From: Mytilus trossulus
Lineage: Eukaryota
Direction of reading: 5' to 3'
DNA: 64,000 bases
Assembly: GCF_036588685.1 (NCBI RefSeq)
Contig: NC_086377.1
Coordinates: 18,104,001 to 18,168,000, forward strand
Made by a program: the position numbers and the translations under genes. This document shows, piece by piece, positions 1,247-35,843 of this stretch. The number at the start of each line of letters is the position of its first letter. Position 1 is the first letter of the stretch. Below the pieces are notes generated by a model. The model worked only from the letters and a program-made list of their open reading frames with translations. It searched no databases and had not been told where the DNA came from.

Positions 1247-3556
1247 TTATGCTACTGATATGTCTGTACTGCTAGTTTTCATCATTTTATCGATCCTTCG
1301 TTGTACCTCTGATATTCTCTGATCAACTAGAAACATACTGGAATATCTATTCACAGAGAGATTTGTCCTTGGTTTTATTGGAACAGTTAGTTTTTGTCTC
1401 CTTTCGCGACTGTCTTCATTGGTGGAAAGCTTTACATTCTCGGTTTCATTTTTTTGCAACGTAACTCCCGTTATTTGTTCTACAGTGGTTGTTTTTGGAG
1501 CCTCTTGTGTTTTAGGATTTCGAAAACCTTCTTCTACTTCAGTCGATTTACCAAAGCGATGTTTTGTTTGAGTATTATTTTCGAGTTCTTTTATTTTAGT
1601 TTTTAGTGACACTTTTGAATTGACTGCCCCTGTCCCCATCTCTGGTGGTTTTACTCGAGTGTTGTCTACAAGAAGTGCCTGTTTAGTAGTTGTGCGGTTC
1701 GGTACAGAATGTTTTGTTGACTTTTCATCTGTTTTCTCCTTGGTTTTACTCTTGCTTTCATCGTCTCCTATCCTTTTAGGCTTTTGAATTGTAGAAAATA
1801 GAAACTCGTAACGTTCTTTCTTATCATTATTCTTTGAAATTTGACCTTCCGTCAGTTTTGAATATTGATTGTCAAATTTTGCATTTACAGGCTCCTCGTT
1901 GTTTGTTTCACTCTTTGGTTCTATGTCTTTCATTGTTGGTTTCTTGCTCTCTGGAGACTTGTTTTCGAAATGGACCTTTTTATTTGTTATATTATCTTTC
2001 GCCATTGCTAGGGGCTGGATTCCCATAATTTCCTCAACTTCCGGTTGTCCGAGTTCAAGACTTTTTGGAATCAACGGATCAGACAATGTGATTATTTGTT
2101 TCTTTTCTTTAATTGAGCTGAAATTATCAGTAGGTATTTGAGTTAGATTTGGTTTGATTTGTCCAGGTTTTGATGTGTCCTTACGATCTAAACTGCCTGT
2201 GCGGGCGGCATGGTTGTATTTTTGAATTGGTTTTTCGTTTATTTTTGTTGGTTTGTCTGCAATATCCTTCGGTCTTGTAGCTTGTGATTTCTGTTTAAGT
2301 TCTACATCGGGATTCTTTGTTTGCTTATTGGAAATGTTTGGATCTAAAGGATTGTTTCGTCTGTTATCTCTACGAACATTATCATTATTACTTATTTTCT
2401 TTTTTGGATTTACTTTATCTTGTTGTGTTGTACTTAACTCCGCACCGTTTGTTAGGCTTTCGGCTTTGTTCAGAGGATAATTTGTACTGACATCCGTATA
2501 TGTTTTTCTAAACGTTTTTAGAGTAGTGTGTTTAACAGCATAACTATGCTTTTGAGGAACATAAAAACGTTGAAAACGTTCTGAGGTGGAACGTCGCACT
2601 ATATCCTGTTTTACTACGGTTTTAGAAATACGTTGTTTTGTGCTTATTCTAGGTGTAATTTTCTTTTTGCCTACGTCTAGTAAAATAGGATCTTCTTCGT
2701 TTACAGTTGATAATGTCGCCTTTACAGCGATATTATTAATTGCCTTTTTGGTCATGTTTTTATGCAATTTATCTTTTCCACTTGGATATGTCTTGTTTTC
2801 CCAGTCTACCTCAAACTTTCTTTGAGATTTATAAACGTTATTGCTCTCGCCTTCATTTGACTTTTCAAGCGACTGTTTTTTCTTCTCAACTGTCTTTCGT
2901 CCAATTTCCCAAAGTTTTCTACTAGATAATTTCGTCCCACTTTCAATTCGTCTCGCAGCCATAAGTTTGTGCTGCCAAATCATACGCTCCTGTACAATCT
3001 TTTTCTCAATGTATGATATTCTGCGTTCAGCTTTTACAATATCTTTATTTCTTTCCTGTTCAGCGGTTGTTACTCTGTGCATAAACAACTTCCGGTCCTC
3101 CGCGTGTTTCTTTTCTATTGTTTTAATTCGCGTTCTCGTCTCCTCTCTGGACTTTTCCGCTCTTTTTTCGATACTCTCTATGTTTTTGGCAATTATCATT
3201 GATTCCTTTTTAATGTGTTCTTCCATATGTCTAGTGCTCCTATTAGAAAGAGAAGAACTCAGTCTTTTCCTTTCCTCAATTTTTCGTTCTCTTAACTTCA
3301 TTTTTTTCTTGTTTGATATTTTCTCTTTTTCGATATTTTGAACAAACATTTCCATCATTCCTTCATCTTTTTTCATCCTCTCCTTCTCTTGCTCTTTCCA
3401 AGCTTTTTCTTTTCTTTCAGCAATTTCTCTTTTATGTAGTTCCTCTTGTCGTATATTCCAGGCTATACACGCTTGATAGATTTGTCGTTCCTTCTCCGTC
3501 TGTTTTTTTCGCTCTTCAATTTTCTTATGGTACAAAATGTCAACAGCATTACCCAT
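1247..3556 (-). CDS. Uncharacterised K/E/R-rich coiled-coil protein with long low-complexity tail (769 aa, single coding exon)
   Basis: 2.3-kb uninterrupted ORF. Acceptor ttttcttttcaacag precedes an exon start at 3619, with an in-frame stop upstream of ATG 3556. Candidate upstream exon ~5450..5372 ends in G|gtaag. The N-terminal ~200 aa carry a ~22-aa periodic motif shared with the neighbouring genes. Confidence 0.75.
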   Translation of the reverse strand: MGNAVDILYHKKIEERKKQTEKERQIYQACIAWNIRQEELHKREIAERKEKAWKEQEKERMKKDEGMMEMFVQNIEKEKISNKKKMKLRERKIEERKRLSSSLSNRSTRHMEEHIKKESMIIAKNIESIEKRAEKSREETRTRIKTIEKKHAEDRKLFMHRVTTAEQERNKDIVKAERRISYIEKKIVQERMIWQHKLMAARRIESGTKLSSRKLWEIGRKTVEKKKQSLEKSNEGESNNVYKSQRKFEVDWENKTYPSGKDKLHKNMTKKAINNIAVKATLSTVNEEDPILLDVGKKKITPRISTKQRISKTVVKQDIVRRSTSERFQRFYVPQKHSYAVKHTTLKTFRKTYTDVSTNYPLNKAESLTNGAELSTTQQDKVNPKKKISNNDNVRRDNRRNNPLDPNISNKQTKNPDVELKQKSQATRPKDIADKPTKINEKPIQKYNHAARTGSLDRKDTSKPGQIKPNLTQIPTDNFSSIKEKKQIITLSDPLIPKSLELGQPEVEEIMGIQPLAMAKDNITNKKVHFENKSPESKKPTMKDIEPKSETNNEEPVNAKFDNQYSKLTEGQISKNNDKKERYEFLFSTIQKPKRIGDDESKSKTKEKTDEKSTKHSVPNRTTTKQALLVDNTRVKPPEMGTGAVNSKVSLKTKIKELENNTQTKHRFGKSTEVEEGFRNPKTQEAPKTTTVEQITGVTLQKNETENVKLSTNEDSRERRQKLTVPIKPRTNLSVNRYSSMFLVDQRISEVQRRIDKMMKTSSTDISVA

Positions 3557-4839
3557 GGCAACGTTTCTATCAAGTCCATTTCCTTGTCATAACGATTGGT
3601 ATGCACTTGGTGTGTGTATCTGTTGAAAAGAAAACATTATACAATAAATGACTGTAATATTTCTAGAAATAACATCAAAAATGTGATATACACTGAATAA
3701 CACGCATAGCAGGTTATTTTCAATTGTGCACATCATTTTTTATGTTATATGAAATAGACAGAAAAAATGTTACAGTCATTTACTGGAGTAAATCTTGAAA
3801 AAACGGTGACGACGTCGAGGTCACATGACGAAATGATTTCTATGAGCTGATAAACAAAACAACGTCATCCAATCAGAAGACACGTAATATCCAAAATTAA
3901 ATTATAAAAAATTGTACCTCTCTTTAAATAACAGAGCCGAATCAAGTAAAGGTATCTAACACAAGAAGCTAAATGAGTTGTGAAACAAGTGATATATCAA
4001 ATGTGTGATCTTAATGTGTTTGTTTCAGAAATGCATTGACCTTATTTACATAGCTCTTTTAAATCATTTGATCTGACTAATTGTGTATATAAACGTAATA
4101 TTTATCTAAATAATAACGAATATTTAACCAAATAAGATCAAGTATCTTGATTTATTTTATGTGAAAAGAGCTTCAGACGCATGAAATTATTAAACGTATT
4201 GTTTTCAATTTTTTAATGTCTTTTATATTATTTTAAGGAAATGCGTCTCATCCTCTTAGTCATCTTTTCAAAATCTGTAGGATAGTGGATATGTTTGGGT
4301 CCTGGTCGGATCTCTCATTTCTTTAATTTTTTAATTATTTTTTTTTTAGTTCTTTCTTATATATTTGTTCTATAATCATTTTGCCCAATATTCTCAAGTC
4401 TTCATTTATCAATATCCTGGTATTGTTAATTAGCTTTTCGCCATATTCCCTATTATTCAATCTGTGTTTGCTTTTAATCTGTACTGTTTGACCATAACCA
4501 TTATTCTTTTAATCACATATAGACCCTTAGAAAAAAAGTGGTCGGTTGGTTTGAATCTCAATGGTTTTTTAAAGTTGATTAAAAATAAATATTTGGGGCT
4601 CTTTTATTATTGCTATGACTACTTTATAAAGATATAAAAATATGTCTTTTAACACAAAGACCGCATTTTAGGGATATTGTTTGTTTTTGTTTTTTTATGG
4701 GGGAGGGATCTCATGTGAAATTGATTGCTATCCAATGACACACTTAAAACAGATTACATATTTGAGACAAACATTCTGGTTCAATATGAAGCAAGAATCG
4801 TGTCAAAATATATTCCAATTATTTTACATTCTTTACTAA

Positions 4840-9269: not shown

Positions 9270-10901
9270 TTAATTTGATACTGTGACATTTTGCCTTATA
9301 TCTTCTGAATTATCTTGTATATTTCCACTATGTAAAGACTTCTCAGTTGCTGTAACACTCAAATTGTCATAATCCTTTTCTTTTTTCTTTCGTGATTTTG
9401 CTCCATCCGTTTTAACCTTACCTATCAGACCTCGTTTTGGTATTTTAGGAAGCGTTAAGGCAGTGGCACGTGGTGTGTTTCGATTACTAACAGTTTCCAT
9501 GACTCTTGCTTGGTCCTTCACATTCTTAACGATATTTTGATGATGTGATACATCTTGATCACGTGATTGTTCATGTGTATCTGTTTCTCTGGGTTCGACG
9601 TCGAAGGACTGGACGGATCTCTTGAAAACTTCCTTCTTTAATCCTTCGATCTTTTGGACATGTAAAAGCCAAGCCTTTCTTTCATTATATTTGCGTTTTT
9701 CAATTTCTTGAAAACGTTTTTGTGATGCTTCGAACTCTTCTTCTCTTTTGTGTTCCAACTCTTGCATGCGATGAAGAAATGCTTCCTGTTCTCGTTGTTT
9801 CGTCTCTTCAAGGTGACTAACTCTGTTTTTCAATTTTTCAACGTTCTTTTGTTTTTGTTTCTCGATTTCAAGAATTCTTTGTTGTAACGCATCATTTTCC
9901 GTTTGGTATTCTTTATCCTTTCTTTGTAACATTCGACAAAAAGCAAAATTGTTCGCTCTCCGTCTTTTTTCAAATTCAACCATTCTTCTTTTAAGCATTA
10001 AATTATCAGTCTTTTTCTTTTTCTCTATTTTTCTAATCTGTGTTTGAATTTCGTCCCTATAACTTTGTTCTAGTTCCCTTTCGTCATTTTTCCTTGTTAA
10101 CTTCCGTTCCAAAAGCCTCTGCCACTGAATTTCTTCCATTCGAATATGAGTCGTGATTGGTTCAAGATTACGTATTGTCCCTATTATTCGACTATTTTGT
10201 TGTTCAAATGGTTCATGCTTCCAAGTGTAAGGCACTATTCTTCTACCGGTGTCAGTGATTTCTTCATCATTATCGTTTGCACAATTCGTTTCCTTTGCCT
10301 CAGTAAGCTGATTTTTTGTGAGTTTACTCCGTTCATTATTGCGCGGGTCTTTCTCGTGTTCGTCAACAGCTGGTATTGGAGAGCTACTGTGTTTGCTCCG
10401 TTCATTGCGCGGGTCTTTCTCGTGTTCGTCAACAGCTGGTATTGGAGAGCTACTGTGTTTGCTCCGTTCATTGCGCAGGTCTTTCTCGTGTTCGTCAACA
10501 GCTGGTATTGGAGAGCTACTGTATACAGATTCCTTTCTGTCTTGATTGTTCTTCTCGTTTATGTTTTCTTTAATTTCTTCATCTTTGACGTTCATATTTT
10601 CTTCTTGTCCTGTCGCCACTTTATGAGGTCTTTTCACAAATCCACTATCAACAAAGTCGTTTCTATTCTTTCCATTTACGTTTTCTTTTGATTTCTTATA
10701 TTTTTCGTCAGTATTTTTGTCTTTTCGTTCCACATGTGGGTATCTAGATTCCGGATTATCTATACTCGCGTTTGTTGAACTGATAACATTTTCTTGGTTC
10801 GTTATGTCGTCGTTCAAATGCGTTCTTCTGTTATCTTCCTTTTCATGTTCTTCTTTTTTCTTTCCTGTTTCCACGTTTCTTGTTTCACTTTGATCGCTCA
10901 T
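9270..10901 (-). CDS. Uncharacterised coiled-coil protein (543 aa, single coding exon), related to the 1247..3556 gene
   Basis: 1.6-kb ORF. Acceptor ttttatccag precedes an exon start at 10952, with in-frame TAA before ATG 10901. Candidate upstream donor AG|gtaagc near 11623. Central QQRILEIEKQK...EAFLHRMQELE...KRFQEIEKRKYNERKAW periodic coiled coil. Confidence 0.75.
   Translation of the reverse strand: MSDQSETRNVETGKKKEEHEKEDNRRTHLNDDITNQENVISSTNASIDNPESRYPHVERKDKNTDEKYKKSKENVNGKNRNDFVDSGFVKRPHKVATGQEENMNVKDEEIKENINEKNNQDRKESVYSSSPIPAVDEHEKDLRNERSKHSSSPIPAVDEHEKDPRNERSKHSSSPIPAVDEHEKDPRNNERSKLTKNQLTEAKETNCANDNDEEITDTGRRIVPYTWKHEPFEQQNSRIIGTIRNLEPITTHIRMEEIQWQRLLERKLTRKNDERELEQSYRDEIQTQIRKIEKKKKTDNLMLKRRMVEFEKRRRANNFAFCRMLQRKDKEYQTENDALQQRILEIEKQKQKNVEKLKNRVSHLEETKQREQEAFLHRMQELEHKREEEFEASQKRFQEIEKRKYNERKAWLLHVQKIEGLKKEVFKRSVQSFDVEPRETDTHEQSRDQDVSHHQNIVKNVKDQARVMETVSNRNTPRATALTLPKIPKRGLIGKVKTDGAKSRKKKEKDYDNLSVTATEKSLHSGNIQDNSEDIRQNVTVSN
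10322..10520 (-). repeat. Coding tandem repeat, 66 bp x3 (SSSPIPAVDEHEKD[L/P]RNERSKH)
   Basis: Three near-identical in-frame 22-codon units within the 543-aa ORF. Confidence 0.95.
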
Positions 10902-11129
10902 TTTGTTTCAATATTGACTTTCATCTTATTCGGTTAAAATAATGTGTATTCTCTGGATAAAATAAATAATTTGTTAAAAAATTGCTGCATTCACTAGAAT
11001 AGGATTCGTTTAATTTGTAAACTCATTTTTTTGTTTGTATTGCCTTTATAGTTTGTTTTCAAATCAATTCGCCTAATACTTGATGTTTACGGGAAAATGA
11101 ATAGATTGTTTTACACTCGGTTAATAAAT

Positions 11130-12921: not shown

Positions 12922-15552
12922 TTAGGGTTTGATAGTACTTTTCATATGATGAGTGGTCATTTTGTCATTTTTCATTCGGACCTTGATTACACTTTTATGT
13001 CTTTGCCATGTTAAGTGGCCGTCTTTGTTTTTTCTTTCTTTTGCTGAAAGTTTTCTTTGAAAAGCATCTTTTTCCTCCCTTATTTTTCTCTCTATTTGCA
13101 AAATTCTTTGTTCAGAGTTATATCTATTTTCCTGTTGTTTTTGTTCAATGTCCTGTATTTTTCTGTATAAACTGTGCCTTTCTGCCACTTTTCGACTTTC
13201 GATTTGTTCCAGTTTTTTTCGTGTAATTTCCCTAAAATATAAAATATAAGGTTAATTAATTAATAGTAGCGGTATATCTTTATGAATAGGTCTGAAGTAT
13301 ACACAATTTGAATACTTTTACCTGAAGTTTTGTGCAAATGTCGCCAATTCAACGTTAAAGGGGCTAGTGCCGAGTTCCTCTTTATGCACTTCATTTCTAG
13401 CCAATCAAAATTACAGATTTCCAGTAGATTATAAATCTTCATTATGTGATACCCGATGTAGTATGATTGTCCATGAGACAATTCTTCACAAGAAAACAAA
13501 TTGTAACGGATAGTAGTTCCTTCATAATACAAGTTCCAAAAGGAAAAATCATTCTGGAATATCATTTATTAGGAATAAATATTACAGTATATGTTACTAA
13601 CGGAATGAATGGTAAAGAATATTTATTCCAACAGGAATAGATATTATAACAATGTTTATAAAAAAGTTTCCATTGGAACGTCTGTTAGGTGGAACAAATA
13701 CAAAATGTACATACGTTGACACAATGACATAGAAATTAAAACCCATTTAGGTCACCGTACGACCCTCAACAATGAGCAAAACCCCATACCACATAGTCAG
13801 TTATAAAAGGCACGCAAATGACAAATGTAAAACAGTTGAACGAGAATGATAGGCAAAATAAAAAAAATAGAGAAAAGGGCGTAAAACATTGCAAAATAAC
13901 GAAATGTCGCGTACAGAAAAACGAGGTGACCAAATATAAAGAATAGATAATGATAAGCAAAATGAAAAAAAGAATAGAAACAGAGATCGAAAACAATTCA
14001 ATTAAAGTCATGAGAGATCCCAAACCAGACCTCCAAACAAAAAGAAGAAAAAATACTTTGATGTATGACATGTTTGTTTTTCGTTAATTTTATGTACATA
14101 AATAATGCCGTTAGTTTTCTGGTTTGAATTGTTTTACATTTGTCATTTCGGGGCTTTTTATCGCTGACTATGCGGTATGGACTTTACTCAATGTTGAAGG
14201 CCGCACGGTGACTATAGTTGTTAATTTCGGTGTCATTTGGTCTTTTGCGGAGAGTTGTCTCATTTGCAATCGTACCACATCTTCTTTTTCTATATTTTGT
14301 AAGTTCAACGAATTAAAAATATTGTTTTTAATACCCGATTTTATTTAAACATAAAATATAATAATGATAATTCAGACCTTTTTTTCTGCTTTACATTTTC
14401 AATATCTTCCAGTCTTTGATAGAAGCTGCCTCTGTTGTGATATTCGTGCTGCAATGCAATCGCAGGCAATCTGTCCGTTTTCCTGTCGTTAATATCCGTA
14501 AGTGGTCGGTAATAGTCGGAACGAGAAGTGTTTGATTCTAAACATGTTAACGGGGGTAACGTTTGTGCGCTTTGTCTATCTAACACATTTTGTCTCTTAA
14601 TCTTCTCCATTTTCTTTATCCTTCGTTGAACAACCTCCTTTTTTAAATGGTGTATTTTGTTAACCTCATTGACTACTTTGTGATACTCTATTAGATCGTC
14701 CGTTGATAACGAGTCTCTCTCAGTACTAACGCTTGATTCTGACGAAGGATGTGAATCGGCTACATGATGTTTCAGCCTTTCGAGTCTCCCTTTCCATGCA
14801 CACATAGAAGACTCACATCGTACATATTTGCTCTCTATTATGTTTCTCAAATCTGTATTATCACTGTACGAAGCGTGCACTCCACATGTAGGGCAAGTTT
14901 TGTTACCTCGTTTAGTCCATTCTTTGATGCATGACAGGCAATATAAATGTCCGTTACAACATTGCTGAGGTTGATTCAAAATAAGTCGACTGAAAAATTA
15001 AAAAAAAATGATCAAAAGTTGGGATACTAAATAAAATAAAAAAGAGTGCGCACGCTGAAATGTCTCGGCTGCCTTACTAACCATGATAGATATTTGTATA
15101 TAACCCTTACGCCAAATTGGTGAGACTCTATTCAGTGGCTCCAAATAATTCGAAATCATGGCTAGTGAAATAACAAAAACCTTCTTGTTTTTATCATGCA
15201 AGTGCAACAAATACTGCGGATTTATATTTGCCATACACATGCAAGGAAAGATATTAATACAATTGTTTACAAATATTCTCTCAGCAAGACTCGTTTGAAT
15301 ATTGACATGAAACAATAAAAAGTATTTGCTAGTCTCATCCTTTCGTTTTCATATAATCTTGTTTATAGTAGTTCTAATTAATAGTCCTTCTCTCATGGCT
15401 AAATCAAAGTGTTAACTGATTTAGTTCAGAAATTATAGTTCTAATTAAGAATCTTACCAAATAGAACATTTATACTCTAGTCTTTCTCTTTTAGAAAGGT
15501 CCAGGAATATCTCGTTATCATGTCCTCCAACGTCAACCAACGTTTCATCCAT
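12922..15552 (-). CDS. C3HC4 RING plus TRAF/SIAH-type zinc-finger E3 ubiquitin ligase (RNF41/RNF151/PDZRN-like N-terminus) with C-terminal coiled coil; 338 aa, 3 exons
   Basis: Exons 15552..15458 (MDETLVDVGGHDNEIFLDLSKRERLEYKCSI+TG|gtaag), 14989..14378 and 13231..12922. Both junctions are phase 2 and frame-compatible. Splicing completes the RING: CSIC...C-NGH-LYCLSC...CPTC, followed by C-ESSM-C-AWKG...LKHH...H. The exon-2 donor (AG|gtctga) is weak. Confidence 0.85.
13470..13720. repeat. Dispersed repeat (second copy 42510-42717)
   Basis: Shared GGAATAAATATTACAG...TTCCAACAGGAATAGATATTAT.ACAATGTTTATAA.AAAGTTTCCATTGGAAC. Confidence 0.8.
14070..14290. mobile_element. Abundant interspersed repeat family (AAGATGTGGTATGA.TGCCAATGAGACAACTCTCC head)
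   Basis: Other copies or fragments at ~13730-13850, 38100-38390, 39598-39856, 43064-43290, 43980-44413, 45246-45370, 52866-53275 and 62667-62781, in both orientations. Confidence 0.8.
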
Positions 15553-17052: not shown

Positions 17053-20000
17053 ATGTTTGTGCTTGTGTTTGTGGGTATGTTTGTTCATACTGTTTTCTGT
17101 ATGCAGTGCAGATCGCAAACAAATAAACCAGTAGATTGGTAAGATTTAAGTCACATGATAACATTTGAAATTTAATAATATTTTACATTTTCAGTTCTCA
17201 TTCTTTTTGAACATGTTTAAACACTTTTGTGGTGTCTAAAATAGACAAATCAATTTGTTTGTTTGTTTGTCCGTGTGTGTGCTTTTTTTCCTTTTCCTAT
17301 ACATAAAAAGGATAATACATATCATGATTTTCAACCTATACATTTAGTCAACCTTTTATAGATATTTCATATACATGTAGGTGTATTATTTTGTACCCGA
17401 GGGGTCTTTCGTTTTTCATTATACACAACAGCTGTTCCCGAATTAACAGTTCGAAAGTCAACGAAAATGAAATTGAAAAGCATTTCAAACCGAAAATCTT
17501 ATAAGTGTTGCTAAATACGGCTAACTTAAAGGTAATCTATGCCTGAGTGTAGAAAAACCTGAATAGTCTGGTAACCTTTTAGTAAAATCGCATGTTCAAT
17601 CCTGCTCAACAAATCGGTCTAACACAAAGACGCCTTAACACGATAACGACGCGTGTAACATTTGGAGCAGGATCAGATTACCCTTTGCGAAGAAACTGAT
17701 GTAAGTGTTGCTCAGTCTTGAGTTATGTATGTTGTGTTTTGTACACAGTTGTTGTCTATTGATAGTTTTTGTTTTTGCCCTGACATTGTCATTTCGTTTT
17801 GGACAAATGAGTTTGATTATTCCTAAAGTATCTTTTGTTTTCTTTTCTAGTATTAAATATGCATTCAGCAAACGTTATATTATATATTTTAAGGTTCATA
17901 GTGTACAAGATACCTAAGCTTGGAAGTCATCCTGATCCTATTTTCCAATCTGGGACGGGATTCTATTACATGGACAATGATAATCCTGAGCTGACACCTT
18001 CTGACAGAGGATTAGATGTGAAGAATGATGCCTTGTTTCATACACTCGATCAAATCTACAATAACAAGGTATAAAGTTTGATGAAATTTGGTAGATTCTG
18101 CATTGTTTCGTATCTTTTGGATCATATAGGAAGGGAGGCATGATATCTCACCAAACCTATTTAACCCGCCGCATTTTGCGCCTGTTCCAAGTCAGAAGGT
18201 TATGATCTTTGTTATACTAATTACTTGAAAGCTGTTTAATTCAATTTATTTATTAGTTTATAAGTTAAGTATGACTTTCAATATATTTGAAGTATTTGAA
18301 TAAACCGTGTTTAACAGTTCAAGGAAACCTTAGATAGTCAGTCATTCACATTGGTGCTACAAGTCCTTTCATTATTATTTTTTTAATGATACGCCAAGAT
18401 ATACACAAATTTGAGGGGTTGGTCTTATTTCAGACAGAAGTTGGCTATTTTATGTATAGCGATCACACACCAGACAATAGAACAGGCAACGACCCAAGAG
18501 GACATGCAAAAGGTAAACAGTACAAGCATTTAACATTACATGTTCCAAAGTCTTCTTTTATGTTCCCAGAAATATGATATAGATGGAAATATGCAAAACT
18601 GAAAGTTGACACTTATCTCTCAGTATTTCAAAAAGTTGAGATTTTCCGTACAACAATATTTGTTTACAATTTGCCTGTCTTTTCTAAGCTTTATTAAACA
18701 CAATATGTAGCAAAAAATAATAAGTCAAAACATTTTCTTTTAAAAATTGTAAGTAAACAATTGCAACTTTATAACATGGAGAAGGATAGATGGGTAAAGC
18801 GCAAATAGGAAAAAAGAGAGAAAAAAACCAGCTGCGTTCTAACTGTTTTCACCTGCTGGAGTGATGTCCCATCTGTAACTAGGTTTTATTGGAAATTTTC
18901 TTTAGTTAATAACCAAACATGATAATAGACATGCATCAGTAGTATATATTTAAAGAATTATATATTCGTAGAAATTTCATGAAGTATTAATTATTTTTAA
19001 TTCTTAATTTTTATTCAAAACGTATATAGTTGTTGCGTCACTGTAAAGCAAAGTTACATCTGGTTACGGTTAAAAAAAAAATGAAATACTCTTAATATAG
19101 CGGACTTAAAATTAATAAATATTTTTTTCAGGAGTTTTGGGATTTGAACAATCAGGTGGATTTTGGATGATACATAGCGCACCACAGTTCCCTCCATTGA
19201 GGTCTGATGGCTACAAATGGCAAGAAAAGGCCTCGAAAAATGGACAGACTTTCCTATGTTTATCTTTAGATTACGGGATCTTTAATCGCACAGGTACTCA
19301 GTATATAAATGTAAAGTGTAATAATTATAGGTTATCGTCACTGTCTATAGATATCATCATATATGTTGTCTTCAGATATTGTCTCACGTTTTCTCTACGT
19401 ATATCTTTATTCGTTTCGTGTAAGATATCTTCCACGTGTTGTCTCAAGATGTTATCATACGTGTTGTCTTCCCATATCATAACACGTACGAGTTGTCTTC
19501 CGATATCATAACACGTAAGTGTTGTCTTCAGATATCATAACACGTATGTATTGTACAAGATATCGTCACATGCATTGTCGTTTTAAATCGTAAGCATATA
19601 TTTTCTCCAGATATCGTCTCACGTTTGTCTTCATATATCGTCTCACATTTGTCTTCATATATCGAATCACGTTTGTATTCAGATATCGTCTCACGTTTTT
19701 CATCAGATATTGTCTCAAGTTCGTCTTCAGATATTTTCTCACGTTCGTCTTCATATATCATCTCACATTTGTATTCAGTTTCACGTTTGTTTCCAGATAT
19801 CGTAACTTGCTTTGTCTTCACATGTCGTCTCACCTTTGTCTACAGAAGTCGTCTCACGTTTGTCTACAGATATCGCCTCACATTGGTCTTCAGATATCGT
19901 CTCACGTTTGTCGTCAGATATCGTAACTCGCTTTGTCTTCAGCTATCGTCTCATGTTTGTCTTCAGTTTTCGGCTCATGTTTGTCTACAGATATCATAAC

Positions 20001-23000
20001 TCACTTTGTCTACATATATCGTCTCACGTTTGTCTTCAGATATCGTCACTCATTTTGTATTAAGATATCATCTCTAGTTTATCTTCAGATATCGTCTCAC
20101 GTTTGTCTTTAGATGTCGTCACTCGCTTTGTCTACATATATCGTCTCACGTTTGTCATCAGATATCGTCACTCGCTTTGTTTTCAGATATCGTCCAAGTT
20201 TGTCTTCAGATATCGCCTGACGTTTGTCTTCAGATATCACCTCACATTTGTCTTCAGATATCGTCTCACGTTTGTCTTCAGATATTGTCACTCGCTTTGT
20301 CTCAGGTATCGCCACTCGCTTTGTTTTCAGATATCGTCTCACGTTTGTCTCCAGATATCGCCTGACGTTAGTCTTCAGATATCACCTCACATTTGTCTTC
20401 AGATATCGTCACTCGCTTTGTCTTAAGATATCGTTACTCGCTTTATCTTCAGATATCGTCTCACGTTTGTCTTGATATATCGCCTCACGTTTGTCTATAT
20501 TTATCGCCTCACGTTTGTCTTTATGTATTATCTCAGATTTGTCTTCAAATATCGTCCCACGTTCATCTTCAAATATCGCCTCACATTTGTCTTCATATAT
20601 CGCCTCACATTCGTCTTCAGATATCCTCTCACGTTTATCTTCAATTATCCTCTCACGTTTATCTTCAATTATCGTCTCACATTTGTCTTCAAATATCGTC
20701 CCACGTTCGTCTTCAGATCTCGTCTCACATTTGTCTACCGATATCGCAGATATCGGCCCACGTTTGTCTTCAGATATCGTCTCATGTTTATCTTCACATA
20801 TCGTCTCACATTTGTCTTCAGATATCGTCTCACATTTGTCTTCAGATATCGTCCCACGTTTGTCTTCAGATATCGTTACTCACTGTGCTTTCAGATTTCG
20901 TCTCACATTTGTCTTCCGATATCTTTTCAGTTTTGGTGATTTTTAATTATCCTCACACGTTTTGTCTCCAGATGTCATTACACGTTTTGTCGTCAGATAC
21001 CTTAGTTCATTTTGTTGCGAGATGAAAATATCAATAATAGAATTGAGAATGGAAATGGGGAATGTGTCAAAGAGACAATAACCCGACCATAGAAAAAAGT
21101 TTACTCTGGTAGTTAAAGATATCGTTATTTCTTTCATTCATGAAAATATGTTAAGATATCTGTATTCATTACATTTTTTTTTAGATATCATTATTAACCT
21201 GTCTCGTATGATATTTCTTTATTCTCTATTTATTTGTTAAAGTGTTTAAATATCTTTATTTATTAGTTTTTGTGGTAAATGAGTGCAGATATCTTTATTT
21301 ATTCATCGTGTATAGATATCTTTATTCATTTGTAAATTTGTTAAGATATCTTTATTCCTTTGTAGTTGAGCTATCTGTCTTCCCTAATTTTGTCTACAAA
21401 TATGTTATTGTATGCTTTTTGCTGTACGGTTATGCATATACAATGGTAGTTTGTTGGATTCTTAATAATTACCCTCAAATGTTTGATTTTTATTGGTGTA
21501 TCTGTTGATGGGATTTTGGCTTATTGCTATGAATCTATTACCAACCATTAAGTTTAATTCATTTTTGTTCATATTATATTTCTTGTGTTTAGATATTCTT
21601 TGGTCATGATTATTGTTTCAGACGTCTGTGTTTCAATATATGCTCTATTTCAAAAATCTTTTATCTATAATTTTTTAATAGTTTATATTATATCATATTC
21701 GCAGGAACGGTGTTCAAATACATTTTCCCGTATATATACGATGTTGGCTTCCCTGCAATGTTCAACAAAGATTATCCAATGTTAAGACTTTTTAGTGTAG
21801 ACAAAGGTACAAGACAGCTACATGTCCAAAAGGCACCATGGTATGACGTAATAAAACTGCCAACAAAAGAAGGCGTGAGTTTCTTGAGTTTTTCGAAGTA
21901 TGGAAAATTCGGGAATGATTTATATGATGGCTTATTGTCAAATGAACTTCAACAGGACTTACTAGTGCAGTCATGGATAGCGACACAAAAAACGGCGGGA
22001 GATAAGCTACCTTCAAACTGTTCTATTCAGTACAAGGTAAGTGCAGACATGGATACATTAACCCCTATCCAAGTCCCACCAAAAATAAGCTGATGCCAAA
22101 CCACATTTTAACTGTTACATTAATGGGGCTGCTTCATTTGTTCTAGGTCGGGCTATGCCCGGTTCGCCCTATCACGTGACCGGGTTAAATATGGCTGAAA
22201 ATAAAACGAGTGGAACCGGCTGATTTAAAGATGGCGACAGAAGTTCAAATTTATACTTTTTTGCTTTCTAAGCTAGGGAATTTAAAAGATGAACCTATTA
22301 ACAATAAATATATATTTTTAAGATGCAGACTTTTTTTCTGAGGCCTTATTCATCATAAAAACGTTTCTCCGAGATAGTTTTATGAATTTGAAAAAAAAAT
22401 ATAGCATGGCAATTTAATATCGTCGTAGTGGACTAATTAAGTATCATGTATCATACTAGTCTGATTGACAAAAATCAATATTCACCTTTTAAATTCCGAT
22501 TATTTATCTAAAATTGCACTTTCTGCCATACTTTTATGACCGGCTGATTGCTTGCCGGTTAGTGTACACCGGCGAGAGCGGCGTATGCCTATTAGCGCCG
22601 GCGGCTGATTTTACAGCCTATGAAGCGACTGTGCCTATACCGGAAGAGTCAACCGGGCTAAGCCGCTGTGTCAAATCAAGTACTACCATTAAGCACTAGG
22701 CAAGTTCAGTCTTGGAGAGGGAGAGTCAGAAATAAAAAAAATATGAAAAATAAAAATAAAAATATATGTGTCCATGGTTCCTAAGCATATTAAACTGGTA
22801 ATATAACTACATCGTCGTTTAAAACAGTCATCAGCTTTATTTAAAAGAAATGCAGACATATATCTATTCAACAGTCTAACTTCAAAATTTGAATATGAAA
22901 TTGTCAGAATTAGTCGATTTACTGTTTTCCAAGTATACTCTATTTGGGATGGTCATTATGTTACGTTGCTAAGTTTTTTCCTCTTCAGTATAATAAATTA

Positions 23001-31266: not shown

Positions 31267-34200
31267 TTAATTGCAATCAAGTTTTGATATCCTTTTTACT
31301 GCTGTGATACTAGATTGGGATCTATTACGTTGCAAAGCTTCCTCGTAACACTGATAGGCTCTGTCTTTATCACCAGATATTTCATAGCATACACCAAGTA
31401 ATATTAAGGAAATATATATATGTGAAACTGTAAATGAACAATTGTCTGTCACTATTAAATATAAATCACGTAAAGCTTGTTGTCTTTTATCTGAATCACC
31501 AAGACGATGAAAGCATAGACATCTTAGACAATGAGACATAACATTAGGCGGTACGTGTATATCTTCATCTTCAACCTCCAGCTTCAGTTCTGATGGAATC
31601 AATGATGAGTTCCGAATGTATTTGACATGAGCTATAGTAGCTATTTTCATCCTTTCATTTAATTTCATTTTAGAATGTACATTTTGTCGGTAACAATTTC
31701 TGTGTTTTTCACACTCGTAATCATCATCCCTCATCATATCAGGTGAACATCTTGATAGAACATACTCCGCTAGTCTGAGTGTAACATTAAACTGTCCTGT
31801 AACATAATAAAACGACGCGTATAACAACCAACCTGACACAGCATCTGTTTCGGTGCCGTTCTGTAAATGTCTATGATAACGAGCAGATATGCTGTACGAT
31901 TTACTTACAGATTTTGGTGGCGGTAAAAATTGTGCTACAATTTGGCTGATTTTAGCATAATGATACTTACATACATCACTTACAAATGTAGACGATTCGG
32001 ACATAAGTAACGATTCGGTAAATGATAGATAGTTATGGCAACCTAAAATGTCTTTTGGTACTGGTATCCTGTTTGCAATCTTGTAAAATAAACAGTCTAA
32101 CATAACTAAAGAAGATTCACTCTTTGTACTTTCATTGTCAGGTGGAAATAAACCCATTAGCAATCCACCAATCCCTTCATGCTTTATATTCTCAAGAGCA
32201 CGCATTAATATCTTACTGTTACTCTCACTGATCGTCCCTAGGAACATATTATGTTCAGGTATAAAATAGTTCGGACAGTAGCAGATCTTTACCCATGATA
32301 TCAATTTATCAAGACAGAGTGAAAAACAATGAAACAATTTTGGTATTTGAAAGGTGTCAATATCCACCTCCTCTGAGACCCAAAATAGAGCCGTCTTCAG
32401 AAAGTAAGAACACACTAAGTCCTTTACATCATTATCTGTGTTTACAATACGCTTAAATGTTAACTTGAGTAGACTGTAACAAAGGAGTTGAGTGAAATTA
32501 AACGAATGTACAAGTATTTTTTCTGCTACAGAGAAAGAAAATCTCCATAAGTAACGATCTGAAATAGTTTTAGGACCGATAGCCACTATCAAGCATCCAT
32601 AACTTTTGATCCTGTTGATTACGAAATTAGACGGCCATTGTCGTCGATGACGGACTGTCCATTGAATTGCATTGTGAGGTAAATACTTACTTCTTATGCA
32701 GAATGCCTCGTCTTCAGTCCTACTTAGATTGGATATACATGGACCATGTATACTTACACGTTTGCCATATCCGTATCTTTGTATGTAATAACCAAGAAAG
32801 TCATCAACCGAAAAATAAGCACCTCTACATGTTTTTGGAGGACAGTTACATTTTACATTGAACCAGGAATTTCGATCCGTTTGTGCTATAATTCTGATTC
32901 TAGTAAATCCAGGATGGTCAATGGCTGTCTCCATAACCGCTATATCACTGTTAATTGGATGTTTGATATTCCTTTCGTCCTTTATTAAGTCTATGTTATT
33001 TAAAACGTGCATTGTATCTATGTCACTGTCTGGCAAAGCAAGGCCTTCTGCCAAACTTCCACTTGTTATGTGTGTGTGACGCTGATCAATAGCACACACA
33101 TTGGCGATTCTATCATGTATGATACATAGTCGTTGTTTGTTTCGTATATCTAGTTCAGTACCAACTGCTATTGCTAGTTGTTTGTATAAGTATTTCTCCA
33201 TCGAGTTTCTTCCAAGTAAAAGCAAAGTATCTATAAAATATATGTATGTATCAATCATCCTAAAACCATTACATGACATTAATACATCCGGGAGAGTAGT
33301 GTTTCAGAACATCGGATTTTAATGAGGTTGTTAATACATAGATTATCATCTCCCTTAGATATATTGAAAGCTGTCTATCTGATCGGATCGCCAAAGGTAA
33401 GTATTAAGGATATGTATCTCTGTTTAAAAATGATAAGGTTTTTAAAATGTAGTAGATGATATATGGAACTGAAAAGTCTGACTTTTGGTCCATGTGGTTT
33501 TTTCGGGATATCATCCTTTGCATATTTGGAGGGAATTATTTCGTCTTGATTTCTCATACAAATAACATTGGCTGCATTTTTGTTTAAAAAAACAATGAAA
33601 AAGAGTAGACATTATATAGGCTTTTGAAACTATGTATGGTATAAGATTAAGAAAAGAAAAGTTTCGGTTAGTGTGCAAAATTACTATGACAGTACATAGA
33701 TAAAACAAGACGATTAAAAAAATGGCAAAATTTTAAAAGCAAGAGGAGCAAACATCCTTAGGTAGACGCCATTGAAATCTTACGTCGAAAACGTTTAGTC
33801 AGGTATGGCTATTTATAACCATATATACCCATGGCAGGGGCAGCTACATCAATTCTTATAAGGGAGGGGCTCCAACCAAGGATTAAGGGGAGTTCCAACT
33901 ATGTGCCCCCTTCAAGTGCATTGATCGTTCACAAAAGAGGAGGTTCCAACCCCTGTATTCCCCTTAGGCCACTGCAAGTATTTAAAACTATTACTTTAGT
34001 TACTATAATAAAACGATCGATAGTTTGGCTGTTTGTGATAAATGATCTGCTGTAAAAATGTCGATATAAATAATAATCTATACTTTGATATTTGTTAACT
34101 TTTTCTATATCAACAGTTGAAATCATTATAAAAACTTTAGTTATTGTGTTGTCTGTTCGTTATTTCATTTCTTTAGTCATGGTGTCGCCTGTTAGTAATT

Positions 34201-34824
34201 TTGCTTTCCTAATCAAGTTGTCTGTTTGTCGGGTCTTTTCTATGACATTGTATTTTTCTATGACATTGTATTTTTCTATGACATTGTATTTTTCTATGAC
34301 ATTGTATTTTTCTATGACATTGTATTTTTCTATGACATTGTATTTTTCTATGACATTGAACATTTTTATGATATTGTATTTTTGTCTTTGGTCTTATAGT
34401 TTCCTCTTATTACACTGTTTCTGATCACATCAGGACCTCGTTTACACTCTATATTTTCAAAAGTTTGAGAAATTATAATTCGAAATGTATTACTAGTACC
34501 TTTCTCAGTGTCGTTACAATTTTGTAAGAATTCCAGATATTCATTTGAAGATTTGTCAGGATATCTAAGGTTCAGTATCCACTGTTCTCTTGTTTTCCTT
34601 TTTTCTAAGCAAACTTGATACGTTCGTTCAAACTGTTTAATTGTTAGTCCAAAAACATCATTTGTTATCATCATTCCACCATCTAAAGATTGGTAAAGTA
34701 AAGGTGTAAACTTGCGCTTTCCCCGGTACGGAAAACGTTTTACACCGTATATTTCCCAGTACATGATCTTCTTTATGCAAAATCGATTTTCATCATCAGA
34801 TTTGTCTTGGTTTTTTGATGACAT
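31267..34824 (-). CDS. Mab-21/cGAS-like receptor (cGLR) nucleotidyltransferase with unrecognised N-terminal domain and TPR-like C-terminus; ~762 aa
   Basis: Exon 34824..34500 (...DTEK+G|gtacta, phase 1) joins 33230..31267 (tattttatag|AT) in frame. Motifs: SGSLAEGLALPDSDID, likely third acid in TEDEAFC, WRFSFSVAEKILV, YSLLK, SYFLKTALFW, CPNYFIPEHNMF. C-terminal LLGVCYEISGDKDRAYQCYEEAL is TPR-like. A further upstream exon 35957..35876 is predicted. Confidence 0.88.
34236..34383. repeat. 18-bp tandem repeat (TTTTTCTATGACATTGTA), ~7 copies, in cGLR intron
   Basis: Perfect units; source of the NVIEKY and MTLYFS ORFs. Confidence 0.95.
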
Positions 34825-35058
34825 GAAGCCTGTTGGAAAGATACGATTACATAGATAATTTGGTTACTACATTTTAGTTAATGTTACTATAGTTGCATTT
34901 TAAAATACGTTGCTATGAATGAAATAAATAAATATGAATATGTCTAACGTTTCGTAGCTTTCACGGCTCTCGAAGGTTAAGTTTTAAATATCTTAAACAT
35001 ATTAATAGTTATCTGCGCGTCTGGCGTATAAAATTATAATCCTGGTACTTTTGATAAC

Positions 35059-35390
35059 TATCAAAAGGTACCAGGATTATAATTTAGTACGCCAGACGCG
35101 CGTTTCGTCTACATAAGACTCATCAGTGAAGCTCATATCAAAATAGTTATAAAGCCAAAAAAATACAAAGTTGAAGAGCATTGAGGATTCAAAATTCCAA
35201 AACGTTGTGCGAAATACGGCTAAGGTAATCTATGCCTGGGATAAGAAAATCCTTAGTTTTTTTTTAAAAGTTCAAAGTTTTGTATACAGGAAATTTATAA
35301 AAATGACCACATTATTGATATTCATGTCAACACCGAAGTGTTGACTACTGGCCTGGTGATACCCTCGGGGACGAAACGTCCACCAGTCAT
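35059..35390 (-). mobile_element. Retrozyme-like non-autonomous element (~330 bp)
   Basis: Same family as 4840-5120. Contains an intact hammerhead core. Its end is inversely duplicated at 35015-35056. Confidence 0.8.
35089..35132 (-). ncRNA. Type I hammerhead ribozyme
   Basis: GCUUCA CUGAUGA GUCU-UAUGU-AGAC GAAAC GCGC GUC^UGGCGU. Canonical core, 4-bp stem II, palindromic short stem III, stem I with one mismatch. Predicted cleavage between 35095 and 35094. Confidence 0.9.
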
Positions 35391-35677: not shown

Positions 35678-35843
35678 CAACTCGTCTAAACATCAACCCA
35701 ACAATGTTAGATCTGTAAATTTGCTTTCGCAAATTTTTGGTTCTTCCCTCGCCGGGATTCGAACCCATGCTTCTGTGATATCGTGACACCAAATCGCCTG
35801 CACTGCAGCCGTCCCGCTAGACCACACGACCACCTGGGCTCTC
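35678..35843 (-). mobile_element. tRNA-derived SINE inserted in (TA)n
   Basis: Minus strand GCCCAGGTGGTCGTGTGGTCTAGCG (A box) and GGGTTCGAATCCC (B box), followed by a non-tRNA tail; TA repeats on both sides. Confidence 0.75.

What the first reader, a model, noticed from the sequence alone, without database searches (positions are those of the whole stretch)
31267..34829. cGAS-like receptor with intact-looking catalytic residues, an unrecognised N-terminal domain and a TPR-like tail
Seen: the apparently separate ORF at 34824 splices in frame onto the Mab-21 exon. It adds ~108 basic/aromatic residues (FCIKKIMYWEIYGVKRFPYRGKRKF...LYQSLDGGMMITNDVFGLTIKQFERTYQVCLEKRKTREQWILNLRYP) that look globular and match no domain I recognise. 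The core retains GS...DID and a likely third acid; ~250 helical residues ending in a TPR-like repeat follow. Established: cGLRs synthesise cyclic dinucleotides on sensing nucleic acid. Inference: the N-terminal module is a new ligand-binding or localisation domain (RGKRK is NLS-like).
Basis: partly seen in the sequence, partly recalled or inferred. Interest (0 to 1): 0.7.

Follow-up and report, generated by a model that had tools for sequence, protein, structure and literature searches.

The report
Mussel cGAS-like enzyme, unnamed N-module
This mussel gene encodes a cGAS-like immune enzyme of an already catalogued type, but it and about ninety sister genes carry an extra, highly conserved, positively charged front piece of no recognised family that likely grips a fixed ligand, most likely nucleic acid, to help switch the enzyme on.

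Summary
Observation confirmed. Exons 34824-34500 and 33230-31267 join in frame into a 762-aa protein identical to a RefSeq Mytilus trossulus model. The core has the cGAS fold (Z 27.6) with G166-S167, D178, D180, D282, followed by a ~290-aa TPR-like helical tail. The N-module is not unique to this gene. It is a separate exon at 92 loci in this genome, 87 of which have a Mab-21 core downstream. It is upstream of 0 of 60 more distant cores. Its carriers form one clade. It is as constrained as the best-conserved part of the enzyme (dN/dS 0.17 against 0.34 for core plus tail). It has no Pfam, PDB or fold match, and AlphaFold does not fold it as a compact domain (pTM 0.33). Relatives are listed as cGLRs by Li et al. 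2023, with only Mab-21 annotated in the six rows checked. Best reading (inferred, about 35%): a constant basic arm that binds a polyanion, likely nucleic acid, beside the spine helix. Rivals are protein docking and nuclear import. No activity, ligand or junction read for this copy is shown. New variant of a known kind.

The parts
34500..34829 (-). N-module exon: AG acceptor at 34831-34830, 5 nt of 5' UTR, ATG at 34824, codons 1-108 plus one base, phase-1 donor
   Evidence: Sequence. 58 of 62 ATG-starting paralogues have a YAG within 20 nt upstream, 32 of them exactly 5 nt, so an upstream non-coding exon is inferred but not located.
34519..34773 (-). Conserved N-module, residues 18-102: basic/aromatic segment 18-41, short predicted hairpin 42-54, predicted helices 56-78, 80-87 and 94-102; pI 9.7, net charge +7
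   Evidence: dN/dS 0.17
34711..34740 (-). KRFPY-RGKRK motif (residues 29-38): candidate polyanion-binding patch or PY-type import signal
   Evidence: F31 95%, P32 92%, Y33 94%, G35 96%, R37 93% of the rows of A4 filled at each column (94-100 of 100); function inferred
33231..34499 (-). Phase-1 GT-AG intron, 1269 nt, with an 18-bp tandem array at 34236-34383
31267..33230 (-). Second coding exon: linker, Mab-21/cGAS core, helical tail, stop
32140..33201 (-). cGAS-fold nucleotidyltransferase core, residues 119-472 (spine helix 134-154; variable insert about 191-268)
   Evidence: Model pTM 0.83; Z 27.6, rmsd 3.0 over 304 residues to mouse cGAS 4LEY; Foldseek E 2.7e-10
33016..33060 (-). G166-S167 ... 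D178-I179-D180 catalytic motif
   Evidence: NTP_transf_2 hit E 0.004; conserved in A3
32707..32715 (-). Third catalytic acid D282, flanked by atypical E281 and E283
   Evidence: Aligns to 8GJY D184; D in 72 of 75 rows; E281 and E283 each 1 of 75
31270..32139 (-). All-helical TPR-like tail, residues 473-762; sequence-level TPR at 717-745 (31407-31321)
   Evidence: Atlas structure search TM 0.52-0.59 to bacterial TPR proteins and 0.82 to a molluscan Mab-21 cluster

Best explanation
The gene encodes a cGAS-fold enzyme with a TPR-like tail, predicted to make a cyclic nucleotide alarm, whose clade gained an extra basic front exon that likely binds an invariant polyanion, most likely nucleic acid, next to the activating spine helix. 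SHOWN: two-exon structure, cGAS fold of the model, retained triad, single clade, strong purifying selection on the module, and its constant positive charge. INFERRED: the module folds on binding and raises affinity or clustering on nucleic acid, as the cGAS N-terminus does, but through specific conserved contacts. It would act as a constant co-input, while ligand or partner specificity would vary in the insert (191-268) and first tail helices (461-560). ESTABLISHED for the family and untested here: the product activates STING. Whether this particular copy is active is open because of E283.
For: The module joins the spine helix through two short helices. Residues 18-102 are basic in all 75 aligned proteins (pI 8.8-10.6, net +2 to +12), while core charge ranges from -10 to +13. 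Adding the module lifts cores above pI 8.5 from 13 of 37 to 22 of 37; Li et al. give pI > 8.5 for nucleic-acid sensors (PMC9980059 section 6). Near-invariant basic and aromatic residues: K19, F31, Y33, R37, R75, R76, K91, Y96. dN/dS is 0.17 against 0.54-0.56 in the insert and first tail helices, at equal dS (0.98 against 1.00), which fits an unchanging ligand rather than a fast-evolving pathogen epitope. Tandem double modules occur in gene models P0003 and P0004, which fits an avidity role. Precedent: the cGAS N-terminus binds DNA and is needed for full activity (PMC11761673 abstract).
Against: There are no binding or activity data. Many invariant residues are hydrophobic or uncharged (N55, F58, I62, Q64, F65, C72, L73, I83, N85, P89, L100), which fits a protein interface equally well. 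AlphaFold gives neither a compact fold nor a confident placement on the core. Core and spine charge do not differ between the clade and the outgroup (median pI 8.16, n=37, against 8.18, n=8). Ten bivalve proteins with the HGPC motif of this wider tailed family were in Li et al.'s screen and none carries the note that marks the selected active enzymes; no Mytilus protein was screened (Table S3; Figure S3 not seen). The dN/dS set was picked by similarity to the module, which biases its dN downward, and the pairs are not independent. E283 replaces a mostly hydrophobic strand position in this copy.
Confidence: 0.35

Rival explanations
1. The module is a protein-docking unit: an autoinhibitory latch on its own core or tail, an oligomerisation element, or a handle for one conserved host protein shared by all ~90 paralogues.
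For: Amphipathic helices (hydrophobic moment 0.43 for 57-74 and 0.42 for 93-102) with a conserved F58-I62-F65-Y69-L73 stripe. Helices are locally confident (pLDDT 82-86) without a closed fold, as in segments that fold on a partner. Residues 81-100 reach pLDDT 72-86 in the full model. Strong constraint.
Against: The full-length model does not place residues 1-80 confidently on the core or tail. It does not explain the conserved basic/aromatic 29-38 patch. 17 of 20 outgroup core ORFs begin with their own Met just before the spine, so the fold needs no latch.
Confidence: 0.3
2. The module mainly targets the enzyme to the nucleus or another compartment, through a PY-type or long-spacer bipartite NLS in residues 18-38.
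For: [RKH]x2-5PY in 75 of 98 members (12.2 in shuffles) and a bipartite pattern with spacer up to 15 in 75 of 98 (18.3 in shuffles). The motif lies in the poorly ordered part. The PY-NLS consensus is R/H/KX2-5PY (PMC2408616 abstract).
Against: Classical patterns are at or below shuffle levels (3 of 98 and 6 of 98). In described PY-NLSs the basic or hydrophobic motif lies N-terminal to the PY, whereas here most basic residues follow it. An NLS does not explain why residues 53-102 are the most conserved part (dN/dS 0.15). The counts reflect shared ancestry.
Confidence: 0.15
3. The clade is functional, but this copy is catalytically impaired or drifting (E283 beside D282), acting as a decoy or an early pseudogene.
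For: E283 is 1 of 75. Many paralogues carry stops or frameshifts.
Against: Both exons and splice sites are intact. pN/pS of this gene against its paralogues matches the family (0.26 module, 0.53 core plus tail). The model keeps 281-289 as a strand. Near-identical contigs cover the exon 2 and 3' flank in runs guessed to be RNA.
Confidence: 0.15

Closest known systems
Animal cGLR family of Li et al. 2023 (PMC9980059), including Mytilus members VDI57443.1, VDI84017.1, VDI76260.1, VDI64477.1, CAC5366520.1, CAC5423023.1
   Same: These six N-module-bearing relatives are all in Table S1 (6 of 6 looked up). The motif NDVFGLT occurs 36 times in the searchable text of that table. Same core and triad.
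   Different: Table S2 gives these six only the Mab-21 superfamily hit, and the paper's truncated sequences start after the module. No Mytilus protein is in the biochemical screen. The module is not mentioned in the passages and sections 5-6 that I read.
Vertebrate cGAS (4LEY, 4K96) and coral Sp-cGLR1 (8GJY)
   Same: Core fold (Z 27.6, rmsd 3.0, 304 residues); GS and three acids; a basic N-terminal extension ahead of the spine.
   Different: 18% identity. The cGAS N-terminus is described as disordered, whereas this module has invariant residues and predicted helices. There is an extra ~290-aa TPR-like tail.
Other mussel Mab-21 plus TPR-like-tail genes (548 candidate cores in this genome, 150 scored)
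   Same: Same single long exon with core and tail.
   Different: No N-module: 0 of 60 cores below 53% identity have one within 35 kb; 17 of 20 have their own Met 43-56 codons before the GS motif; they form the other side of a branch with support 100.

Membership tests
cGLR (Li et al. 2023 criteria) | Active-site residues GS, [DE]x[DE] and a third [DE] | tested here: met
   G166, S167, D178, D180, D282; intact in 70 of the 72 rows with residues at all five columns (3 of 75 rows gapped)
cGLR (Li et al. 2023 criteria) | Literal pattern h[QT]GS X8-20 [DE]h[DE]h X50-90 h[DE]h | tested here: inconclusive
   This copy reads TSGS, DIDT, a 99-residue spacer and E-D-E, so it departs from the letter of the pattern. 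The paper's own table includes relatives with SSGS and, by eye, a close relative with DIDT and E-D-I (VDI77921.1), so the pattern was not applied literally.
cGLR (Li et al. 2023 criteria) | Homology across both the NTase core and the C-terminal helix bundle | tested here: met
   Mab-21_C E 2.8e-11, above cut-off; Mab-21 E 4e-4, below cut-off; 8GJY E 2e-9
cGLR (Li et al. 2023 criteria) | AlphaFold model structurally homologous to cGAS/cGLR | tested here: met
   pTM 0.83; Foldseek E 2.7e-10; Z 27.6 over residues 120-472
cGLR (functional) | Ligand-activated synthesis of a cyclic dinucleotide that activates STING | not testable with these tools
   No assay possible; no Mytilus protein in the published screen
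Nucleic-acid-sensing cGLRs | High pI (> 8.5) and a basic ligand surface | tested here: inconclusive
TPR repeat proteins | Tandem 34-residue helix pairs above the Pfam cut-off | tested here: inconclusive
   One repeat at 26.9 bits against a cut-off of 27.8; tail fold TM 0.52-0.59 to TPR proteins
Classical importin-alpha NLS (patterns recalled) | K[KR]x[KR], or bipartite with a 10-12 spacer | tested here: not met
   Absent in this protein; 3 of 98 and 6 of 98 in the family, below shuffles
PY-NLS | R/H/K-X2-5-PY preceded by a hydrophobic or basic motif | tested here: inconclusive
   K29-R-F-P-Y33 present; 75 of 98 members; upstream motif not scored; import not testable
Any known domain family (N-module) | Sequence or fold match to a described domain | tested here: inconclusive
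   No match, but the model is of low confidence and the alignments are shallow, so a distant known fold is not excluded

The most novel reading that the evidence does not exclude
The ~85-residue module is a previously undescribed ligand-recognition domain that arose once as a new exon and made a ~90-gene cGLR clade into two-input receptors: a constant N-module that licenses activation plus a variable insert and TPR-like tail that set specificity. This would explain why tailed bivalve cGLR cores did not stand out in nucleic-acid screens, and it would offer a way to assay them.
Probability: 0.22. Interest if true: 0.72.

Novelty: new variant of a known kind. Interest (0 to 1): 0.45.

Why it matters
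Bivalves carry hundreds of cGLRs (218 in M. galloprovincialis, Table S5 row), and what activates most of them is unknown. Li et al. count 87% of cGLRs as having no appended domain (section 5). In the six rows checked, this clade carries a module that their domain table does not annotate, and it is as constrained as the enzyme's best-conserved region. It gives a direct with/without test of how accessory domains gate cGAS-like enzymes, and warns that core-only constructs of these proteins may lack a required part. The range found is narrow and the function unproven, which limits the present weight.

Tried and rejected
Domain searches for the module found nothing. Pfam: 0 families for P0001; best among 56 members E 0.06. 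PDB sequences: best E about 0.5. ESM Atlas features: no usable hit for P0001 or P0246. Foldseek on PDB and BFVD: none at E <= 0.001. VIA wide: best Z 4.1, none >= 5. These blanks show neither a new fold nor absence. An origin by internal duplication was rejected (hhalign probability 0.08; profile against outgroup cores). The module profile on 20 outgroup loci gave one weak hit (E 0.005, same strand, 1.9 kb upstream of the core in L130) lacking N55, Q64 and R75-R76; I treated it as chance. Homodimer prediction of residues 14-108 gave no answer (score 0.00, alignment not used, fold uncertain); it is evidence neither way. Sequencing runs: no holder on record as RNA was listed; the joints have unknown letters between the sides and were not used as splice proof. 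Gene conversion as the cause of module conservation was rejected (equal dS; pS correlation 0.81). Fusions to unrelated domains in 10 of 120 listed proteins are probably gene-model errors; only one was checked (the module of SRCR model P0032 matches L049, which has a full Mab-21 exon 2 kb downstream). Of the 61 representative-search hits, P0170 (E 2e-5, five short stretches in a repeat protein) was dismissed as spurious. One search failed on a frame slip. The careful tree did not finish; the quick tree is reported. Literature: four searches listed no paper describing this module; only listings were seen except for PMC9980059, and subscription papers are not covered.

Full report
Observation. 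On the minus strand an ATG at 34824 opens 108 codons plus one base before a GT at 34499. An AG at 33232-33231 resumes a frame that runs to the stop at 31267. The joined product is 762 aa and identical to P0005, RefSeq LOC134719478 of Mytilus trossulus. The donor is at the same codon and phase in 67 of 80 paralogous loci, against 2 and 0 for the other phases. No contig spanning this copy's junction was listed. In runs only guessed to be RNA, paralogous contigs continue from the exon end into exon-2-like codons (8 in X2, 3 in X4). Near-identical contigs cover parts of this copy's exon 2 (491 nt with 4 differences). Splicing is thus well supported for the family and inferred for this copy.

Core and tail. 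Pfam gives Mab-21_C above cut-off, and Mab-21, NTP_transf_2 and one TPR below cut-off. The full-length model (75 sequences, pTM 0.83) matches cGAS over residues 120-472 (Z 27.6, rmsd 3.0; Foldseek E 2.7e-10). G166-S167, D178 and D180 form the motif, and D282 aligns to D184 of Sp-cGLR1. These five residues are intact in 70 of 72 scorable relatives. This copy is odd in having E281 and E283 around D282 (each 1 of 75). A close M. galloprovincialis relative printed shares E281 but has I at 283 (compared by eye). Residues 473-762 are helical and TPR-like in fold (TM 0.52-0.59). This tail is general to mussel Mab-21 genes, so it is not what sets this gene apart.

The N-module is a clade marker. It gives 99 matches in this genome (99 again with a broader profile). 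After dropping 7 second fragments of the same loci, 92 remain. Of these, 75 have a same-strand core within 10 kb downstream, 84 within 20 kb and 87 within 35 kb; only 8 have one within 10 kb upstream. Of the 150 scored cores (548 candidates), 80 of 90 at 53% identity or more have a module upstream and 0 of 60 below that do. Of the ten close cores without one, 10 kb around each was fetched and no module was found; most are broken or partial, but two (L135, L137) are unbroken. Outgroup ORFs mostly start with their own Met just before the spine (17 of 20). A quick ML tree of 49 cores places all 28 module carriers on one side of a long branch (support 100). These include two metagenome loci with a 42% identical module, the same GGT exon end and a Mab-21 exon downstream (2 of 3 loci; the third ends at the contig edge). 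So the exon was gained once and then amplified. A profile search of 1.84 billion representatives found 61 proteins. Every species-named hit listed is Mytilus; the hosts of the unnamed ones are unknown.

Constraint. Across 38 intact genes (703 pairs; 543-674 unsaturated per region), dN/dS is 0.17 for residues 18-102, 0.16 for the Mab-21_C region, 0.34 for core plus tail, and 0.54-0.56 for the insert (191-268) and first tail helices (461-560). dS is equal in module and core. The set was chosen by similarity to the module and the pairs share ancestry, so the contrast is somewhat inflated, but purifying selection is clear. The module is always basic (pI 8.8-10.6, n=75).

Structure of the module. 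No family or fold match was found. AlphaFold gives three confident helices (56-102, pLDDT 82-86) but pTM 0.33, and does not dock residues 1-80 in the full protein. 'Globular domain' is therefore unproven; folding on a partner is plausible, and a shallow alignment may also explain the result.

Mechanism. I commit, at about 35%, to a constant polyanion-binding arm, most likely for nucleic acid, placed before the spine helix and promoting activation. The precedent is the DNA-binding cGAS N-terminus (PMC11761673, abstract and opening text seen). Its invariance against variable insert and tail argues that it binds something unchanging and is not the diversified sensor. Against this: no binding data exist, conserved hydrophobic stripes suit a protein interface (rival, 30%), clade cores are no more basic than outgroup cores, and none of ten screened bivalve HGPC-motif proteins is noted as a selected active enzyme. 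Classical NLS patterns fail, though a PY-type motif is present (PMC2408616 abstract seen; rival, 15%). This copy may be impaired (15%).

Known versus new. The protein meets Li et al.'s homology and structure criteria and keeps the catalytic residues, though not the literal pattern (PMC9980059: passages, sections 5 and 6, and searches of six supplementary files seen; Figure S3 not readable). Six of six relatives looked up are in their cGLR table, annotated only as Mab-21 and trimmed of the module. Four literature searches (listings only) showed no description of the module. An earlier unchecked note on another tailed cGLR in this genome favours a non-nucleic-acid ligand; I take it as a lead only, and it bears against part of my reading. 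Verdict: a real, previously unannotated, clade-defining accessory module on a known receptor type; new variant of a known kind; interest 0.45.

Noticed in passing
window 33199-33201 (-): M119 lies 47 codons before the GS motif, where module-less paralogues start. It is not conserved in the clade (K or R in 49 of 75), so a module-less isoform of this copy is possible but unsupported.
   Followed up: partly
G000 contig C11 (58 of 92 module loci; e.g. L038-L040, L071-L075, L085-L092): The clade is concentrated in tandem clusters on one chromosome-scale contig, with many broken copies; the window's gene is one of four module loci on C5, far from the others.
   Followed up: partly
L109 (C13:11817231-11819792), L045/L046; proteins P0003, P0004: Tandem duplicated N-module exons ahead of one core, or without a nearby core.
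   Followed up: partly
L134 (C11:23604001-23614000): The paralogue closest in the Mab-21_C region (84%) has an unbroken core but a frameshifted N-module exon, a natural module-loss allele or a young pseudogene.
   Followed up: partly
window 14341-14997 (-): ORF with weak RING and Sina-type zinc-finger hits, all below cut-off; a probable E3-ligase-like gene.
   Followed up: no
window 1247-3586 and 9270-10907 (-): Two long low-complexity, charged ORFs (779 and 545 aa) with no Pfam hit; the second holds a 66-bp tandem repeat.
   Followed up: no
window 19604-20923: 24-bp tandem array (about 55 units) that produces several overlapping open frames.
   Followed up: no
window 34986-35100 and about 35700-35830: Upstream of the gene, a high-copy repeat with very high contig depth and a tRNA-like SINE-looking stretch by eye; ARAGORN calls no tRNA.
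   Followed up: no
L137:7551-8183: A second, very divergent Mab-21 sequence (28% identity) about 5 kb from a clade core.
   Followed up: no
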